Source: Camelus ferus (lineage: Eukaryota). Taken from it: 64,000 bases of DNA. This document shows positions 5,733 to 63,812 of this stretch, in pieces. Numbering within the stretch: position 1 is the stretch's first letter; the number at the start of each line of letters is the position of its first letter. A program made the position numbers and the translations under genes. The stretch spans positions 19,408,001 to 19,472,000 of the forward strand of contig NC_045696.1 of assembly GCF_009834535.1 (NCBI RefSeq). Reading direction: 5' to 3'. Under the pieces are notes generated by a model. That model had not been told where the DNA came from. It made no database searches and was given only the letters and a program-made list of their open reading frames with translations.

Positions 5733-6567
5733 AAATTTTTTAAATTTTTTAAAAAGTATTTTTATTTTTAATTGAACTATCATCTGTTACAATGTGACAG
5801 TTTCTGGTTTACAGTGTATTATATCAGTCATACATATATATACATATATTCATTTTCATATTTTTTTATTAAACATTACTGTAAGATTGAATTTAGTCCC
5901 AGCGCTATACAGAAGAAATTTGTTTTATATATTTTTATATATAGTAGGTAATATTTGCAAATCATGAACTCTCAATTTATCCCTTCCTACTCTCTTTCCC
6001 CCTAGTAATCATAAGATTGTTTACTATGTCTGTGAGTCTGTTTCTGTTTTATAGATGAGTTCATTAGTGTCTTCTTTTTTCTTTTTTTAGATTCCACATA
6101 TGAGTGGTATATGCTATTTTTCTTTCTCTTTCTGGATTACTTCACTTAGAATGATGATCTCCAGGTCCATCCATGTTGCTTCAAATGGCATTATTTTATT
6201 CTTTTTTATGGCTGAGTAGCATTCCATTGTATAAATATACCACAGCTTCTTTATCCAGTCATCTGTCAATTGATGTTTAAATTGTTTCCAGAAACTACAA
6301 TGAGGTATCACCTCACACTAGTCAGAATGGCCATCATTAAAAAGTCCACAAATGATAAATGCTGGAGAGGGTGTGGAGAAAAGGAAACCATCCTACACTG
6401 TCGGTGGGAATGCAGTTTACTGCAGCCATTATGGAAACCAGTATGGAGAGTCCTCAAAAAACTAAAAACTTACTATATGATCCAGCAATCCCACTCCTGG
6501 GCATATATCCAGAAAGAACTCTAATTCAAAAAGATACATGCACCCCAATGTTCATAGCAGCACTATC
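5733..6567 (-). mobile_element. 5'-truncated, 5'-inverted L1 (twin priming) with TSD
   Basis: 5733-6290 is an antisense L1 3' end and 6291-6566 is a sense ORF2 C-terminal piece ([14 protein letters not shown]..., [14 protein letters not shown]). TSD gacat(ca/tg)attttt at 5720 and 6568. Confidence 0.88.
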
Positions 6568-8391: not shown

Positions 8392-8896
8392 TTCATTTAT
8401 TCAGATATGATTGATATATAACATTGTGTAAGTATAAAGTATACAGGATGCTGAATAGACACACTTATATATTGCAGTGTGATTACTTCTATAGCATTAG
8501 CTAACACCTCTTTCAGGTGGTGTAATTATTATTTCATTTCATGCTGAGAACATATATGATCTAGTTTCTCAGCAACTTTGCAGTATATAATACAGTACTG
8601 CTGACTATAACCACAATGCTCTGAATTAGATCCCCAGAACTTACTCATCTTCCAACTGCAAGTTTGTATGCTTTGACCAACATAGTCCCAATTTCCCCAC
8701 TCCCTAGTCCCTGGTAACACAATTCTACTCTCTGTTTCTAAAAGTTCCAATCTTATAAATTCTACATATAAGTGATATCATATAGTATTTGTCTTTCTCT
8801 GTCTGACTTATTTCACTTAGCATAATACTCTAAAGGTTTATCCATGTTGTTGCAAATGGCAGAATATCCTTCTTTCATATAGCTGGATAATATTCT

Positions 8897-8940
<44 letters not shown>

Positions 8941-9442
8941 TGCATGTACACCCATATTTGTAATCCAATCATTCATTGACAGACTTTTAAGTAATTTCCA
9001 TATCTTGGTTCACATAACTCAATTATAAAAGATGAACAATCTGATTAAAAAACAGCCCTGGAATTGAATAGATATTTCTCCAAAGAAGGCATACAAATGG
9101 CCAACACATACATAAAAAGATGCTCAGCATCACTGATAATCAGGGAAGGCAACTCCAAATCCAAATGAGCTATCACCGCATACCTGATAAAATGACCGTC
9201 ATCAAAAAGAGAAGAGATGGTAAGTATTAGCAAGAACGTGGAGAACAAGGAACCTTGTGCACTCACAGTTGGTGGAAATGTAAATTGGTGCAGCCACTGT
9301 GGAAAACAACATCAAGGTTCCTCAAAAAGTTGAAAATAAAACTACCATTTGATCTAGCAATTCCACTTCTGGGTATATATCCAAAGGAAATGAAAACAGG
9401 TTATTGAAAAAATATCTGCACTCCCATGTTTACTGCAGCATT
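8392..9442 (-). mobile_element. L1MA-type 3' end with inverted upstream segment
   Basis: 8392-~9010 antisense L1 3'UTR/ORF2 end, ~9010-9442 sense ORF2 piece ending at gcagcatt. Confidence 0.8.
8899..8938 (+). repeat. (TG)20 perfect microsatellite
   Basis: Directly visible inside the L1. Confidence 0.97.
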
Positions 9443-21554: not shown

Positions 21555-21666
21555 TTACGCTTTGCTGTCGTCTTCTTTTGATTGAATGATGTCATTAGAA
21601 ACCTTAATTTCTATAGTTTCTGGATTTAGGACTTCTTTCCCATTTTCTTCTTTTAAGGGCAATTTT
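21555..21666 (-). CDS. NCAM2: NCAM2 last coding exon of the transmembrane isoform ([36 protein letters not shown])
   Basis: Acceptor tctcttccag|A, 112 coding bp ending in TAA at 21555-21557. Matches the NCAM2 C-terminus. Confidence 0.96.
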
Positions 21667-24159: not shown

Positions 24160-24279
24160 TCAGGTTCTGTTAGTGGCGTGGTTTCATTTGGCTCATTTAC
24201 TGGGCTCCCATCTTCATGATTAGTAATTCTTTCATCCTCTGTTCTCATCTCCACTATAGGTTCTTTTGATCCATCTTTC
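24160..24279 (-). CDS. NCAM2: NCAM2 cytoplasmic exon ([39 protein letters not shown](E))
   Basis: Acceptor ttctttctag|G, donor GA|gtatgt. 120 bp, phase 2 to 2. The peptide is visible in ORF 24147..24389. Confidence 0.97.
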
Positions 24280-26777: not shown

Positions 26778-26951
26778 TTGAGATTGTTTCTGATCTTTTC
26801 TATTACAATAAATACTGCAGGGAATGCCAAGTGCATAGTTTACTTACCCTTAGGTGAATATATCCAAATCACACATATAATCTACATGAGTCTAATTCCT
26901 GCCTGGTATAAATTACATTTAATTATACTTTAAGTGACATCAGAATCATGA
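26778..26951 (+). repeat. 174-bp direct repeat, copy 1
   Basis: Ungapped match to 27965-28138, 11 mismatches by manual count (~94%). Confidence 0.95.
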
Positions 26952-27964: not shown

Positions 27965-28138
27965 TTGAGATTGTTTCCAATCTTTTCTATTATAATAAAT
28001 GCTGCAAGGAATACCAAGTGCATAGTTTACTTACCCTTAGGTGAATATATCCAAAGCACACATATAATCTCCATGAGTCTAATTCCTACCCTGTATAAAT
28101 TACATTTAATTATACTTTAAGTGACATCAGAATCATGA
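27965..28138 (+). repeat. 174-bp direct repeat, copy 2
   Basis: Ungapped match to 26778-26951. Confidence 0.95.
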
Positions 28139-30104: not shown

Positions 30105-30309
30105 AGGTATGCAGCTTTTCCCTCTTCAAGTTCTTTACTTTTGCCACTGGAGCCACTTTTCTTCCCACACATTCTCCTGGTGATGCACATCAATAACCCA
30201 CATTGTCGGATAAAGAAGCAGCTGACATCTGTTACCACAAGGATTAGCAAGAGGGCGGCAACTCCCAGACCAATGACCGCTCCAAGCCCAAGACCATTAA
30301 AAAGTGTGT
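30105..30309 (-). CDS. NCAM2: NCAM2 transmembrane/juxtamembrane exon ((D)[67 protein letters not shown](L))
   Basis: Acceptor ttttttaag|AC (AG at 30310-30311), donor CT|gtgagt. 205 bp, phase 1 to phase 2. TM helix plus four juxtamembrane Cys (palmitoylation-type cluster of NCAMs). Not called in this frame by the ORF track. Confidence 0.97.
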
Positions 30310-31600: not shown

Positions 31601-31935
31601 TTATTTTTTTTTAAATTTTTTTTATTGAGTTATAGTCATTTTACAATGTTGTGTCAACTTCAGTGTAGAGCACAATTTTTCAGTTATACATGAACATACA
31701 TATATTGATAGTCACATTTCTTTTTCACTGTGAGCTACCACAAGATCCTGTATATATTTCTCTGTGCTATACAGTATAATCTTGTTTATCTATTCTACAT
31801 ATATCTGTCAATATCTACAAATTTTGAACTCCCAGTCTATCCCTTTTCACCCTCCTCCCCCTTGGCAACCACAACTTTATATTATATGTCTATGAGTCTG
31901 TTTCTGTTTTGTATTTAGGTTCTTTTTTTTTTTTA
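31601..31935 (-). mobile_element. Short, young 5'-truncated L1 3' end with TSD
   Basis: Poly(T) plus tttattgagttatagtc..., 'ctatgagtctgtttctgttttgta'. TSD gatataactattttttt at 31558 and 31936. Confidence 0.85.
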
Positions 31936-49086: not shown

Positions 49087-49126
49087 TCATGGAATGTAAT
49101 ATGCAATCATGGAATGTAATATGCAA
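49087..49126 (+). repeat. Perfect 20-bp tandem duplication (tcatggaatgtaatatgcaa)x2
   Basis: Directly visible. Confidence 0.95.
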
Positions 49127-50604
49127 TTATAATCAGTTCTTTATAATAAACATAACATTAGCTATTATAATTTTAAAACAGAACATTTCCAATAAATAGG
49201 TTAAATTCCTATACTGCGAGAATTGCAATTAGGAAATCCCCTTTGTCTCTGCAAGGGAGAAAGAAAAGCAGAAGTGTGTTTACTTTGTGGGTGAGTCCCT
49301 TCTGCACTCTACAGGTCTGATGCTAGCTCAGAAGAAAGACGTACAGCAGTGAACAGCAGAGTTTGGAAAAGACAAATTTTAAAGAATAGACTACCAAAGG
49401 CAAGTCTACTTTTAGACCTTACATGATAGAATCCTGTAGGTATTTCTTTAAAATAAAGTCAGAGAATACTTTCATGCAACAAAACAAATTGTTTTTGATG
49501 AATGAATCTCGAAGCCCAGAACTCAGTAATTTGATTTACCATGTAAGTTATGGTCACTCATGGGAATATATGTAAATCTGACAGCTTTCTAATTGTCCTG
49601 ACTGAGTAGTAAGAGTCACCTTCTAGAGTGCAGCTGGGAGTGAAAAATGCAAAACACCCTTTTCTCATTTTGTAATAAATGAAAATGTGAAAACAAAAGG
49701 CATTAATCATGCTACTCCTTCAAATCCAGCTTGCTCTGAAAGCTGGAATCTAGTAATACCTTCTCCTCTCAATTTCATCTTCTTGAAAATGGCAGCTAAA
49801 ATATTTACTTCTATCTCTGATCCTTGCAAAGAAATTGACTCAGGAAAAAGTAATAAATAAATAAATATACATGTTGCTAGAACATCAATACTTGATACCA
49901 TCTCAAAATAGTATCCAAATCTAGTACACAGGTGCAACTTAATAAACGTACTCAAATTTAATTTATCATTTACTTTGGTACAATTGCATTAAGATATTTT
50001 CACTTCATTAAAAAAATGTCTGGACTTTCAAAAATTGGTGGTCAAACTGAAGAAAATTAACTCTGCTTCACTTTTACTCCTTATGACATTTTAGGTCAAT
50101 AAAAGGAAAATAAGGCAGCAAAACAGGAATCACATCTAACATAATAAAAATTATCAGGTTTATGTCTCATGTAAATGGTAAACACCATGAAATATGATAA
50201 ATATTTATAAAGTTGAAACTTATATTTAAAAGAGTAACAATTAAAACCAATATAAAAGATCCACAATTCAACATAATAAAATTTCTATTTATGCAACGTA
50301 TGTCCATGAACATTGAGTTGTATTTGCAAAATAATCAAAGAAAAGATTAGATGTAGCAAATAGTTAAGTTCCAAGTAAAAGTGACATGATATTTAAGGTT
50401 AACTTTAAGAAACTGAAGAAAACTTTAGAATGAAGCAAGTTATGCTGTGAACTGGTACCTGAAAGAAACAATCCTGGTTCAGTTTTCTTCAGTGTTTTTC
50501 TGACAAATTATCTACTTTAAAGGTTAACAATTTGGGGAAGGGAAAAGAGGCTAACTGTTGACGGGTGAGGATACATGCATAATTAGTTGAACCTTAAAAA
50601 ATAT

Positions 50605-50610
50605 TTTATT
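50605..50610 (-). terminator. Candidate poly(A) signal for the GPI isoform
   Basis: First AATAAA after the GPI-exon stop codon (~70 nt downstream). The AT-rich context makes a chance hit possible. Confidence 0.4.
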
Positions 50611-50678
50611 ATAATTTTAGATTAGCCTTGTAAACTTGCAGATGATAAAAGGGAATACCATAAGATATAGCAACGACA

Positions 50679-50785
50679 TTAAAACATGCAAGACACACTT
50701 ATGGCTAGAATGAAAGAAAACCCAGCAGCATTCAGCTGCCATGACTGGCTTCCATTTTCGCCTTTATTTGCTTCACAGCATTTAT
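50679..50785 (-). CDS. NCAM2: NCAM2 alternative terminal exon of the GPI-anchored short isoform: (D)KCCEANKGENGSQSWQLNAAGFSFILAISVSCMF*
   Basis: Acceptor catacag|AT completes the phase-1 G from the upstream exon (GAT=Asp), giving 34 codons then TAA (50679-50681). Closely matches the mouse GPI-form tail as I recall it (NCCEANKGENGGQSWHLNAVGFTFVITMSLSCLF). Polar spacer plus hydrophobic C-terminus. Confidence 0.93.
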
Positions 50786-53429
50786 CTGTATGATGAAAAT
50801 TGTTTTTGAAAGTAGAATAAGAACAAAACAATTAAGAAAAAAAGCAGAGTTATAAACATGAAAATAAAGGAAAAGAGAATAGTGACAGTAGGAAAGAAAA
50901 AAAAAGAGAAAATAATTAATACAAGATTTACACAAAGCCATTACCTACAAAAAATTACTTTAATACAGGACAAAGAATAAAAAAATCTAGTATAAAGCAT
51001 TTCTAAATAGCTGTCACATGTTAAAAACATAACTGAGGCTCAATATAATAATGTTTATTTCAATAACTCAGACATTTAGTTCTATCACTGATTCCTTTAA
51101 TGTGAACATCTTAAATATTTTTTATTGAAGATAAAACTTATTAGAGAAAGGTCATCAACCATTCTACCGGGCTACTGGTAAATTCACACTGCTACTTAAA
51201 TATGAGTTCATCATATTCTGCAATGTTTACTGATAGCCTTTTTTTTTTCCACCATATTTTCTTAGAACGTATTTAATAAAAGTAGTTTTACTTTTAATAA
51301 TGAATGAGGTACCAAGACATATAAGTGAAAATTTTAAGTTCACACGATAAAAATTTGCAATAAGAAGAAAAGAACATTAATTCAACTGGCTGTGGGCACA
51401 CTCTAGACATATGTTATTGTTACTCATTTAAAATAATTTTGAGAACCAAAGATCATGAAAATAAATTTATTGAATTACTTTGGCATTATGTGCTAAGCCA
51501 AATACATATTGTTCTGCATGTATTATTGATATTTAGATTTGACTGAGATTTCCAGATGGTTAAACTGAAGTTCTTCCCAATTAATTGAACTTCAGTTTCA
51601 CCATTGTTTTGAAATTTCTTTAATTTATATTCCAAAAACAATCATAAATTTAAATTTAAGAAAACATTTTAGTACTTGCCATGTACTTGAATGTTTTGTT
51701 TTCTGTTCATGTTGAGTTACTCAGAGATGAAAGGGTATACTAGTTTTGTTGAAACTAAAAATGAATGTCATCAAAATAATTTTACTATAAAGTTCACTTT
51801 AAGTATAATAAAAAGTCCATGAAAATACAAATTAATTAAAAAATTTTTAGCAATATGTTTATTAGTGGCAACTCATGTCATTTCTTTGTTAGCCTGTTAA
51901 ACTTGAAGAACTCTCATGGATGTAGTACATGCTCGATTTCAGCTGGTAGAATTATTTTACCATTGGATCTTTAGAATATATGAATGGAATTATTTGTCAC
52001 CAAATTATATTGAGAGTAAATGTTAAAATTAGACATATCTTCAATTCATAGTAACAAAAGAAGAAAAAGGAGCAATTACTTTAAGATAATAAGTGTTATT
52101 TCTTTTTTTTTTGGTTAAAACAATCAATACTAAATACATTGTAAGCCAAAAGAAATGGTGAAAAAATTTTTTCAAAATAAGTTTATCTCCAAAAAATTTT
52201 AAAGCATTAGATTATATTCATTCCACCATGTTAATAATATTTTAGTTATTAAAATTACAAAGTAAGTCAGTAAATATAATTTTATCAGCCTCTAGTTCTA
52301 TAGGTGATTTTGTAATCATTTTTATAAGACTTAGTCATCACTAGTCAATATTTTCATTGTTTATAAAATAAAGTGAGGTGGAATTATGCTGTATGAATAT
52401 TACAAAAGGGATCATGATTGTGATTTTGCACACTCTATTTCTATGCGAATCAAGAAACACATCTTTCAAAATAAACATGTCTCTAAATAAGTGAAAATGA
52501 GAAAACATTATTCATCACAAAATACTTTTTAAACCAGAATCATAACCTATGGAGAAATGTGGTATCCACTATGATGTATACATAGAAAAGCCATTATTAT
52601 CAATAGAATATATTATATATGAATTTAAGGTGAGTCTATTGTTAAAAATAGCTCCCTTGTCCAACAAATAAATGTATTCTAGATTTAGTCTGTTGCTTAC
52701 AAAGGTTAAATATATCTTAATGCACACAATTAATGGAATTTTTAATTCAAAGTCTGTAAACTTTATTTGGACAGTCTACAATGAATGCTATTTAAAAAAA
52801 TACAAACTAAATTAACTTTTAAACTCCTTATCTTCTCCAAAGACTTAAGGTTTGCTCATTTGTTACATATAACTAATCTGAAGCCTAAGTTTGAATTTAT
52901 AATATTTATTTTAAAATGGAGTGAGAAATTATATAATTACATGAGTAAGTATAATGAAAGCATGTGAAAAATATCATTTTTTCTTATTTTGCTGATTCAT
53001 AATTTTAACTCCTTAGGAAATTGTGAGTTTAAAGGCTCACAAATTCACCATCAACCATCACAGCCTTTAAAATTGCCCCCAGGAAATTTTCTAGAGCTAA
53101 ATCAAGTAATTCTTGATCTATAATGGTGTGTCTTTGATCTGGCTTTCCATGAGACTTTACCAGTCTGTGGATTTAGTCACAGTAAATTGGACATTATTTT
53201 GTGACTTTTTATAGATAAAATGAATATTTTATTTTTTCCCCCTTTCCCAGTGAGCTGCTCTGGTTTTGTATTAGCATAGTTCAGAGGGGATGAATTCTAT
53301 CTCCTATCTTCTCAGATAGCTTCATTTGTACATCTGTGTGTCTGACTTTTCCTTGACTGCTTGATCCATTTCATCAGCTGTGAAACACGCTCTAGCCCTT
53401 TTCATCATAAAAGTCCTTCTAAAACTGAC

Positions 53430-56988: not shown

Positions 56989-57169
56989 CTTTAATAATGT
57001 TGGGCTTTGGTGGCATGCTGAACTCATAGACAGTTGGTTCTGAATATCCCAATCTATTGGCAGCTGTAATTTGAACTTCATACCCCATTGTCCACTGTAG
57101 ATGCTCCAAAATAATGTGGTCTTTATTTCCCTGAACTTTTTTCTCTAGCCACTGGTCTTCTTTATCTTT
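56989..57169 (-). CDS. NCAM2: NCAM2 internal exon encoding the end of the second FnIII domain ([60 protein letters not shown] + G of the next codon)
   Basis: Peptide recognised as NCAM2. Acceptor ttcctttatag|AAA (AG at 57170-57171), donor AAAG|gtaagc. 181 bp, phase 0 in, phase 1 out. Confidence 0.97.
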
Positions 57170-61483: not shown

Positions 61484-63812
61484 ATCAATCAATGTGACAC
61501 ATCAACGAAAGAAAAGACAAAAACTACATGATCAATTCAATAGCTGCAGAAAAAAGCATTTGATAAAATTCAACATTCATGTTAAAAACTCTTTAACTAA
61601 AGTGGGTATAGAGGGAACATATCTCAACATAGTAAAAGCTATATATGACAAACCCATAGCCAACATAATACTCAGTGGTGAAAAGTTGAGAGCCTTCCCA
61701 CTAAAATCTAGAGTAAGTAGGCATATTCTCACCACATCTATTCAACATTAGAAGTCCTAGCCATAGCAACTGGACAAGAAAGGAACAAAATTGGAAGAGA
61801 AGATGTAAAATTGTCACTATATACAGATGATACGATACTATATATAGAAACTTTAAAGACTCCACAAAAAAAAAAAAACTACTAGCTCTGATAAACACAT
61901 TCAGTAAGGTAGCAGGGTACAAGATTCACATACAGAAGTCTGCTGCAGTTTCTTTATACCAACAGTGAAAGGTCAGAAAAAGAAAGAAAAAAAATCCTGT
62001 TTAAAATTGCATCAAAAAAATGAAATACTTAGAAATAAACCTGGCCAAGGAGGTGAAAGACTTATATGCGAAGAACTACAAAACACTGATTAAGGAAATT
62101 AAAGAAATGGAAAGATCCCATGTGCTTGGATTGGAAGAATTAATATTGTAAATGGTCATACTACCCAAAGCAATCTACAGATTTAATGGGATACCTATCA
62201 AATTATCCAGGACATTTTTCACAGAAATAGAAGAAATAATCCTGAAATTTATATGGAATCACAAAAGACAAAGAATTGCCAATACAATACTGAAGAAAAA
62301 GAATAAAGCTGGAAGAGTAACTCTCCCAGACTTCAGACAATACTACAGAGCTACAGCAATCAAAACAGCATGATACTGGCACAAGAGCAGACATGCGGAT
62401 CAATGAATCAGAATAGAGAGCCCAGAAATAAGTCCACACACCTATGGTCAATTAATCTTCAACAAAGGAGACAAGAATACACAATGGAGAAAAGACAGCC
62501 TCTTCAGAAAGTGGCATTGGGAAAGCTGGACAGCTGTATGTAAACCCCATGTACAAAGATAAACTCAAAATGGCTTAAAGACTTAAACATAAGACATGAT
62601 AAACCTCCTAGAAAAACATAGGCAAAACATTCTCTGACGTAAATCTTAGCAGTATTCTTCTAGGGCAGTCTATCAAAGCAATAGAAATAAAAACAAAAAA
62701 TAAACAAATGGGACCTAATTAAACTTAAAAGCTTTTGCACAGCAAATGAAACTATAAATAAAACAAAAAGACTATCTATGGAATGGGAGAAAATATCTGC
62801 AAACAATGCAACTAACAAGGGCTTAATTTCCAGAATATACAAACATCTCATATATATAGCTCAATAACAAAAAAATACACAACCCAATCAAAAATGGGTA
62901 GAAGATCTAAACAAACTTTTCTACAATAAAGACATACAAATAGCCAATAGGCACATGAAAAATGTTCAATATCACTAACTAAAGTAATGCAAATCAAAAC
63001 TACAGTGAGGTATCATACTAGTCAGAATGATCATCATTGAAGAGTCTACAAACAATATGTACTGGAGAGGGTGTGGAGTAAAGGAAACCCTCCTACACGG
63101 TTGGTGGGAATGTAGTTTGGTGCAGCCATTGTGGAAAACAGTATGCATATTCCTTAAAAATCTAAAAATAAACTTACCGTATGATCCAGCAATCCCACTC
63201 CTGGGCATATATCTGGAGGGAACTCTAATTTGAAAAGATACATGCACACCAATGTTCATAGCAGCACTATTTACAATAGGCAAGACATGGAAACAATCTA
63301 GATGTCTATGGACAGAAGACTGGATAAGGAAGTTGTGGTATACAGACAATGGAATACTACTCAGCCATAAAAAAGAATAAAATAATGCCATTTGCAGCAA
63401 CTTGGACAAACCTAGAGATTGTCATACTAGGTGAAGTAAGCCAGAAATAGAAAGAAAAATACTATACAATATCACTTATATTTGGAATCTAAAAAAATGA
63501 GACAAATGAATTTCCTTACAAAACAGAAACAGACTCACAGACGGAAAACAAACTTGTGGTTACTAGCGGAGAAGGGGGGAGGGTAAATTAGGAGTTAGGG
63601 ATTTGCAGATAGTAACTACTATATATAAAATAGATAAACAGCAAGTTTCTTCTGTATAACAAAGGAAACTATATTCAATATCTAATAACAGCCTATAATG
63701 AAAAAGAAAATGAAAAGGAATATGTAAGTGTATATACATACAACTGAATCACTATGCTGTACCCCAGAAATTAACACATTGTAAACTGACTATACTTCAA
63801 TTAAAAAAAAAA
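61484..63812 (+). mobile_element. 5'-truncated L1 (~2.3 kb; RT and C-terminal part of ORF2, 3'UTR, poly(A)), frameshifted, antisense to NCAM2
   Basis: ORF fragments [64 protein letters not shown]. Poly(A) at 63803-63812. Confidence 0.95.

What the first reader, a model, noticed from the sequence alone, without database searches (positions are those of the whole stretch)
50679..50785. Hidden alternative last exon switching NCAM2 from transmembrane to GPI-anchored
Seen: a 107-bp in-phase exon 6.2 kb into the 26.7-kb intron, missed by the ORF track. It encodes DKCCEANKGENGSQSWQLNAAGFSFILAISVSCMF*, with small residues (N-G-S, candidate omega sites), a polar spacer and a hydrophobic tail. Known: rodent NCAM2/OCAM has TM and GPI isoforms. 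Inference: the exon is intact and functional in this non-model species and may be missing from automated annotation.
Basis: partly seen in the sequence, partly recalled or inferred. Interest (0 to 1): 0.7.

Follow-up and report, generated by a model that had tools for sequence, protein, structure and literature searches.

The report
Known GPI-anchor exon of mammalian NCAM2
This is the alternative last exon that gives the nerve-cell adhesion protein NCAM2 a lipid (GPI) anchor in place of its membrane-spanning segment; it is real and intact here, but the isoform is long known and already annotated in many animals, so it is ordinary.

Summary
50785-50679 (minus strand) is an AG-preceded, in-phase coding segment 6,203 nt into the 26,679-nt intron between the last fibronectin-III exon and the transmembrane exon of NCAM2. 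Its 34 whole codons match the C-terminus of 26 of 139 NCAM2 proteins fetched, from 22 species labels (eutherians 27-31 of 34 identical; also birds, turtle, crocodilians, lizard, axolotl). None of the 26 also carries the transmembrane segment. The tail fits the published GPI-signal layout, with an invariant Asn as best omega candidate. NCAM2-GPI (NCAM2.2) is a described isoform (PMC8471948, PMC7949136). NCBI models it as a 727-aa 'isoform X2' in deer, whale, seal and bats, so 'hidden' overstates it. Junction reads and a trained GPI predictor were not obtained, so use of the exon in this species is inferred. Two side features may be new: a 157-nt AG-free zone before the acceptor (longest of 3,816 on this strand) and a conserved Cys pair retained beside the anchor. 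The scan reported the same exon before in another genome (e1-603517). Verdict: already known; interest low.

The parts
56989..57169 (-). NCAM2 exon for the end of the second fibronectin-III domain; its phase-1 GT donor is shared by both isoforms
   Evidence: 60 of 60 residues identical to PDB 2kbg NCAM2; GT donor and phase
50788..50944 (-). 157-nt AG-free, U-rich zone before the acceptor of the GPI exon; several branch-point-like words, the farthest at -131
   Evidence: Longest of 1,606 AG gaps in the intron and of 3,816 on the minus strand; the plus-strand control has one longer (168) among 3,894
50679..50785 (-). Coding part of the alternative last exon: junction Asp, Cys pair, polar linker, omega candidate Asn (N-G-S), 7-residue spacer, 15-residue uncharged hydrophobic tail, TAA
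   Evidence: layout as in PMC2571997
50643..50660 (-). Start of the 3' UTR; weak likeness to the binding site of the published mouse Ncam2.2 cDNA reverse primer
   Evidence: 14 matches in an 18-column gapped alignment; 18 of 2,000 random 120-nt segments score as well; the Ncam2.1 primer control found no match at the TM stop (primer)
50605..50610 (-). First AATAAA after the stop (69 nt downstream): candidate poly(A) signal, unverified
   Evidence: downstream U fraction only 0.33; such hexamers are frequent in this AT-rich intron
49957..49962 (-). Next candidate poly(A) signal (ATTAAA, 717 nt after the stop), unverified
30105..30309 (-). Transmembrane exon of NCAM2.1, the competing acceptor
   Evidence: 69 of 69 residues identical to deer NCAM2 isoform X1; AG/GT ends
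24160..24279 (-). Cytoplasmic exon of NCAM2.1
   Evidence: 40 of 40 identical; AG/GT ends
21555..21666 (-). Last coding exon of NCAM2.1, to its TAA
   Evidence: 36 of 36 identical; ends

Best explanation
This is the ortholog of the known NCAM2.2 (NCAM2-GPI, OCAM-GPI) alternative terminal exon. SHOWN in the sequence: one phase-1 donor (56989) has two in-frame acceptors, at 50785 and 30309. SHOWN by comparison: related proteins end either in this tail or in the transmembrane plus cytoplasmic tail, never both. INFERRED for this species: when the nearer acceptor is used and the transcript is cleaved and polyadenylated inside the intron, the mRNA encodes the full ectodomain plus 35 residues. The ER transamidase cuts off the last ~24 residues after the invariant Asn and attaches a GPI anchor, giving a surface adhesion molecule with no cytoplasmic tail. 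When the exon is skipped it is removed with the 26.7-kb intron and the transmembrane form is made. The long AG-free, U-rich zone probably holds the signals that regulate the choice (inference).
For: Splice signals and phase. Flanking exons are NCAM2, 100% identical to PDB and deer proteins. tblastn of a 727-aa deer isoform lands on exactly these two exons, 29 of 35 identical on the second. 26 of 139 held proteins carry the tail, 19-31 of 34 identical, with Cys3, Glu4, Asn10, Ser14 and Ala20 invariant; 0 of 26 also have the TM motif. The window's two private changes are hydrophobic for hydrophobic. Last 17 residues: mean Kyte-Doolittle 1.70, no charge; upstream part -1.26. With omega at Asn10 the spacer and tail fall at omega+3..+9 and omega+10..end, as PMC2571997 describes (passages). 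A GPI isoform of NCAM2 made by alternative splicing is stated in PMC8471948 and seen as a band in mouse olfactory bulb in PMC7949136 (passages).
Against: No junction or 3'-end reads were seen for this species. No trained GPI predictor was run. The mouse GPI isoform sequence itself was not among the proteins fetched; rodent support is guinea pig and ground squirrel. The link to mouse Ncam2.2 through a published primer is weak and its control failed. Most matching proteins are automated models (XP_, KA-type accessions), not cloned cDNAs. The tail is only moderately hydrophobic (best 19-residue mean 1.54 against 2.76 for the TM exon).
Confidence: 0.93

Rival explanations
1. The exon is used, but the product is secreted, or held by the uncleaved hydrophobic tail, rather than GPI-anchored; N-G-S is then a glycosylation sequon.
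For: Tail hydrophobicity is moderate. N-G-S fits the N-x-S sequon (established rule, recalled). No predictor or assay was run here.
Against: The Asn is invariant in 26 of 26, but omega+2 is Gly in 6 of 26, which breaks the sequon while keeping a small residue; that favours omega over glycan. Papers call the short isoform GPI-anchored and find it in the membrane fraction.
Confidence: 0.04
2. The exon is intact but vestigial or hardly used in this lineage.
For: No expression evidence at the junction. The review says the NCAM2.2 mRNA is less abundant and more restricted. Two residues differ from all 26 relatives.
Against: Frame, length, acceptor and stop position match relatives. Both private changes are conservative. 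The AG-free zone is intact over 157 nt.
Confidence: 0.025
3. A chance open frame with a hydrophobic end in AT-rich intron DNA.
For: AT-rich DNA readily gives Phe/Ile/Leu runs; 195 of 1,606 intron AGs open a frame of similar length.
Against: E 3.3e-12 to guinea pig NCAM2; conserved to axolotl at the same junction; the only frame in the intron that passes the GPI-like filter.
Confidence: 0.005

Closest known systems
NCAM2.2 / NCAM2-GPI (OCAM-GPI, RNCAM short form) of mouse and human; PMC8471948, PMC7949136, PMC10629901 (passages read); Yoshihara 1997 and Alenius & Bohm 1997 seen only as reference entries
   Same: Same gene, same ectodomain, TM and cytoplasmic part replaced by a GPI signal through alternative splicing.
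   Different: Species only. The mouse and human tails were not fetched, so identity to them was not measured; the passages read give no exon sequence or omega site.
NCAM2 'isoform X2', 727 aa, in NCBI annotation of fallow deer (XP_060990038.1), orca (XP_033273957.1), grey seal (XP_077912958.1), bats (XP_028360958.1, XP_070263091.1, XP_066115195.1); guinea pig 728 aa (XP_063080786.1)
   Same: Same junction and tail, 28-31 of 34 residues identical.
   Different: The window has Leu at tail position 26 and Val at 30, seen in none of the 26 relatives.
NCAM1-120, the GPI isoform of the paralog NCAM1 (PMC7949136, passages)
   Same: Same design: one ectodomain, TM or GPI ending chosen by splicing.
   Different: Different gene; no NCAM1 protein appeared among hits to the tail region, so homology of the two GPI exons is not shown.
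Exons with long AG exclusion zones and distant branch points (Gooding et al. 2006, PMC1431707; passages and supplement rows read)
   Same: 157 nt passes their 150-nt class (165 of 67,334 human introns).
   Different: Branch point not mapped; branch-like words also lie at -33 and -47, so a distant branch point is not required. Their stored file (cut when stored) lists 9 human NCAM2 acceptors, zones 22-68 nt, none of them this exon.

Membership tests
NCAM2 GPI isoform (NCAM2.2) terminal exon | Lies in NCAM2 between the last FN3 exon and the TM exon | tested here: met
NCAM2 GPI isoform (NCAM2.2) terminal exon | AG acceptor, in phase with the FN3 donor, open to a stop | tested here: met
NCAM2 GPI isoform (NCAM2.2) terminal exon | Orthology to the C-terminus of annotated short NCAM2 isoforms | tested here: met
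   26 of 139 held proteins, 19-31 of 34 identical
NCAM2 GPI isoform (NCAM2.2) terminal exon | Mutually exclusive with the TM segment | tested here: met
   0 of 26 tail-bearing proteins hold the TM motif
NCAM2 GPI isoform (NCAM2.2) terminal exon | Direct match to the experimentally studied mouse Ncam2.2 cDNA | tested here: inconclusive
   Primer likeness 19 nt after the stop, 18 of 2,000 random segments as good; control primer failed; mouse tail not fetched
NCAM2 GPI isoform (NCAM2.2) terminal exon | Spliced and polyadenylated in RNA of this species | tested here: inconclusive
   RNA runs hold much of 49800-51000, but no reads or contigs were seen on the junction
GPI attachment signal | Omega residue C/D/G/N/S with small residues around it | tested here: met
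   Asn-Gly-Ser, 24 residues from the end; Asn invariant in 26 of 26. Omega-1 is Glu, not small.
GPI attachment signal | Spacer omega+3..+9, then hydrophobic tail to the C-terminus with no cytoplasmic domain | tested here: met
   7-residue spacer, 15-residue uncharged tail, KD 1.70 over the last 17
GPI attachment signal | N-terminal signal peptide on the protein | not testable with these tools
   The 5' exons lie outside the window and no genome is held
GPI attachment signal | Positive call by PredGPI/NetGPI; PI-PLC release | not testable with these tools
   No such predictor or assay available
Distant-branch-point exon | AG exclusion zone of 150 nt or more | tested here: met
   157 nt
Distant-branch-point exon | Branch point mapped more than 100 nt upstream | not testable with these tools
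   Candidates from -131 to -9; needs lariat mapping

The most novel reading that the evidence does not exclude
The GPI isoform is more than a lipid-anchored copy. With omega at the invariant Asn, the exon leaves a Cys pair in the mature protein 7-8 residues from the anchor (second Cys 26 of 26, first 25 of 26, axolotl to mammals), which the TM isoform lacks at that place. These cysteines may link NCAM2-GPI by disulfide into dimers or to a partner, giving the isoform its own adhesion behaviour. The choice of exon may be governed by a distant branch point in the 157-nt AG-free zone. Neither idea turned up in the listings or in the NCAM2 rows; most subscription papers, including the 1997 originals, were not searchable.
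Probability: 0.15. Interest if true: 0.4.

Novelty: already known. Interest (0 to 1): 0.1.

Why it matters
Little as a discovery: it is a correct rediscovery of a known isoform. The practical use is to check that this species' gene model has both endings. The comparison adds that the exon dates back at least to the common ancestor of amphibians and mammals, names the likely anchor residue, and points to two cheap tests (Cys pair, AG-free zone) on how the two NCAM2 forms differ and are chosen.

Tried and rejected
No genome is held for the window, so the species' own annotation and 5' exons were not checked. Sequencing runs (24 rows listed for 49800-51000): 3 on record as RNA (one study) hold 0.66-0.72 of 125 sampled words, 11 guessed as RNA hold 0.28-0.79, 6 of unknown kind hold 1.00, 4 are unindexed. 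None was seen aligned, so this says nothing about splicing and could be pre-mRNA or DNA. Pfam found nothing on the tail, TM or cytoplasmic exons and only sub-cutoff FN3 matches on the FN3 exon. A search from the axolotl tail region (24 hits of 26 candidates) found no frog or fish tail; the word index is insensitive, so this is not evidence of absence. Mouse Ncam2.1 primer control: no match at the TM stop, which weakens the Ncam2.2 primer match. My first pattern count (23 of 135) missed three tails; the phmmer recount gave 26 of 139 and showed that the first Cys is not invariant (Phe in a low-quality dugong model). Poly(A) site: many hexamers, none singled out. Yoshihara 1997 is not held. PMC13664354 passages gave nothing on the isoform. 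Paper searches were seen as listings only, apart from the papers named as read. No structure or complex job was run: a 34-residue signal gains nothing from it.

Full report
1. Observation. On the minus strand, 50785-50679 is a 107-nt stretch preceded by CAG and ending in TAA. The exon upstream, 57169-56989, is 181 nt and ends one base into a codon before a GT donor. The donor lies 6,203 nt from this acceptor and 26,679 nt from the acceptor at 30309. The 107 nt are only the coding part of what must be a longer terminal exon.

2. The gene. The upstream exon is identical over 60 residues to the second fibronectin-III domain of NCAM2 in PDB 2kbg; NCAM1 chains match only at E 4e-4 to 1e-3. tblastn of an 837-aa deer NCAM2 onto the window gave four exons, each 100% identical: FN3 (57169-56990), transmembrane (30310-30104), cytoplasmic (24278-24159) and last (21665-21558). 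A 727-aa deer isoform gave the FN3 exon and the candidate exon, 29 of 35 identical. The window is thus the 3' end of a eutherian NCAM2 gene. The species was not identified and no genome is held.

3. More than chance. Of 1,606 AG sites in the intron, 195 open a 25-45 residue frame in this phase. Three pass a simple filter (hydrophobic uncharged end, omega-like motif; thresholds my own, set after seeing the peptide), and all three are this one frame. A 40-residue query found guinea pig NCAM2, 719 aa, at E 3.3e-12, one hit among two candidates. Its last 60 residues found 46 proteins among 48 candidates, ten of them covered over 98-100% of the query. Cluster members added more (only up to 15 members per cluster are listed). 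In all, 26 of 139 proteins held carry the tail, from 22 species labels: 10 eutherian (11 proteins, 27-31 of 34 identical), 7 birds, a turtle, 2 crocodilians, a lizard and axolotl (19 of 34). None of the 26 also has the transmembrane motif. Cys3, Glu4, Asn10, Ser14 and Ala20 of the 34 are invariant; Cys2 is kept in 25 of 26. The window differs from all relatives at two places, both hydrophobic for hydrophobic.

4. Anatomy of the tail. PMC2571997 (passages) describes a GPI signal as a linker, small residues around an omega site of C/D/G/N/S, a spacer from omega+3 to +9, and a hydrophobic tail from omega+10. With omega at Asn10, 24 residues from the end, omega+1 and +2 are Gly and Ser, the spacer has seven mostly polar residues, and 15 uncharged residues follow. 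Mean hydropathy is 1.70 over the last 17 residues and -1.26 before them. Omega-1 is Glu, which is not small. The tail is weaker than the true TM segment (best 19-residue mean 1.54 against 2.76). Omega+2 is Ser in 20 and Gly in 6 of 26 relatives, which breaks the glycosylation sequon but keeps a small residue; this favours omega over a glycan. Other candidates (Ser12, Gly8) were not excluded, and no trained predictor was run.

5. Splice and 3' signals. No AG occurs in the 157 nt before the acceptor. This is the longest gap among 1,606 in the intron (median 9) and among 3,816 on the minus strand; the plus strand, as control, has one longer gap (168) among 3,894. The four constitutive acceptors have gaps of 24-93. 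In PMC1431707, 165 of 67,334 human introns reach 150, and such exons are more often alternatively spliced; the authors also estimate that half or more of long zones are not due to distant branch points (passages). Branch-like words lie from -131 to -9, so the branch point is open. The first AATAAA is 69 nt after the stop and an ATTAAA 717 nt after it; neither is singled out. The published mouse Ncam2.2 reverse primer resembles the sequence 19 nt after the stop, a score reached by 18 of 2,000 random segments, but the Ncam2.1 primer found no match at the TM stop, so this is weak.

6. Expression. Public runs hold much of 49800-51000, three of them on record as RNA from one study. No reads or contigs were seen on the junction, so splicing in this species remains inferred.

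7. Mechanism. Shown: one donor, two in-frame acceptors, and a conserved tail that excludes the TM segment. Inferred: use of the near acceptor with polyadenylation inside the intron gives a 727-aa-type precursor; the transamidase removes about 24 residues and attaches GPI to the Asn; skipping gives the TM form. Confidence 0.93. Rivals are a secreted or tail-held product (0.04), a vestigial exon (0.025) and chance (0.005).

8. What is known. PMC8471948 (passages) states that human and mouse make NCAM2.1 (TM) and NCAM2.2 (GPI) by alternative splicing, citing two 1997 papers that I saw only as reference entries (one was asked for and is not held). PMC7949136 (passages) sees both bands in mouse olfactory bulb and only the TM band in hippocampus. 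PMC10629901 (passages) overexpresses each isoform. NCBI's automated annotation lists the short form as 'isoform X2' in deer, orca, seal, bats and guinea pig. The mouse and human tails were not among the proteins fetched, so the tie to the tested isoform rests on gene position, design and other rodents.

9. Novelty. Already known. What may not be in print is the conserved Cys pair left beside the anchor and the long AG-free zone. The search NCAM2 + GPI + disulfide + dimer + cysteine listed 4 papers, none on this by title or abstract start. NCAM2 + 'alternative last exon' listed none. The AG-zone paper's stored file (cut when stored) lists 9 human NCAM2 acceptors, none of them this exon. Subscription papers and their supplements were not searchable and may bear on this. 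I give the disulfide-link reading a probability of 0.15 and interest 0.4 if true. Overall interest 0.1.

Noticed in passing
P0021-P0023, P0029-P0031, P0122-P0135: None of the 20 marsupial NCAM2 proteins fetched carries the GPI tail, though reptiles and eutherians do. Only part of the clusters was listed, so this may be sampling or annotation rather than loss.
   Followed up: no
P0006 vs P0118; P0001/P0047: Lizard isoforms X2/X3 differ by one residue at the start of the GPI exon, and guinea pig has an extra Asp there, which suggests tandem acceptors in those species.
   Followed up: no
window 50690 and 50579 (minus strand): Two TGCATG words (RBFOX-type motif, recalled), one inside the exon and one 100 nt after the stop; four in all between 44000 and 57200. 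Could be chance.
   Followed up: no
window 26778-26951 and 27965-28138: A 174-nt direct duplication, 94% identical, in the intron after the TM exon.
   Followed up: no
window 5760-6566, 8753-9440, 31616-31913, 62918-63812: Related repeat fragments, 68-84% alike, that look like LINE-1 3' ends (label recalled; ORF pieces). The self-comparison showed no high-copy short repeat family in the 64 kb.
   Followed up: no
window 49087-49127: Perfect two-copy 20-nt tandem repeat about 1.5 kb downstream of the GPI stop.
   Followed up: no
P0002, P0117: Manatee and dugong have a changed omega region (Glu at omega+1), and the dugong model has Phe for the first Cys; the dugong record is flagged low quality.
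   Followed up: no
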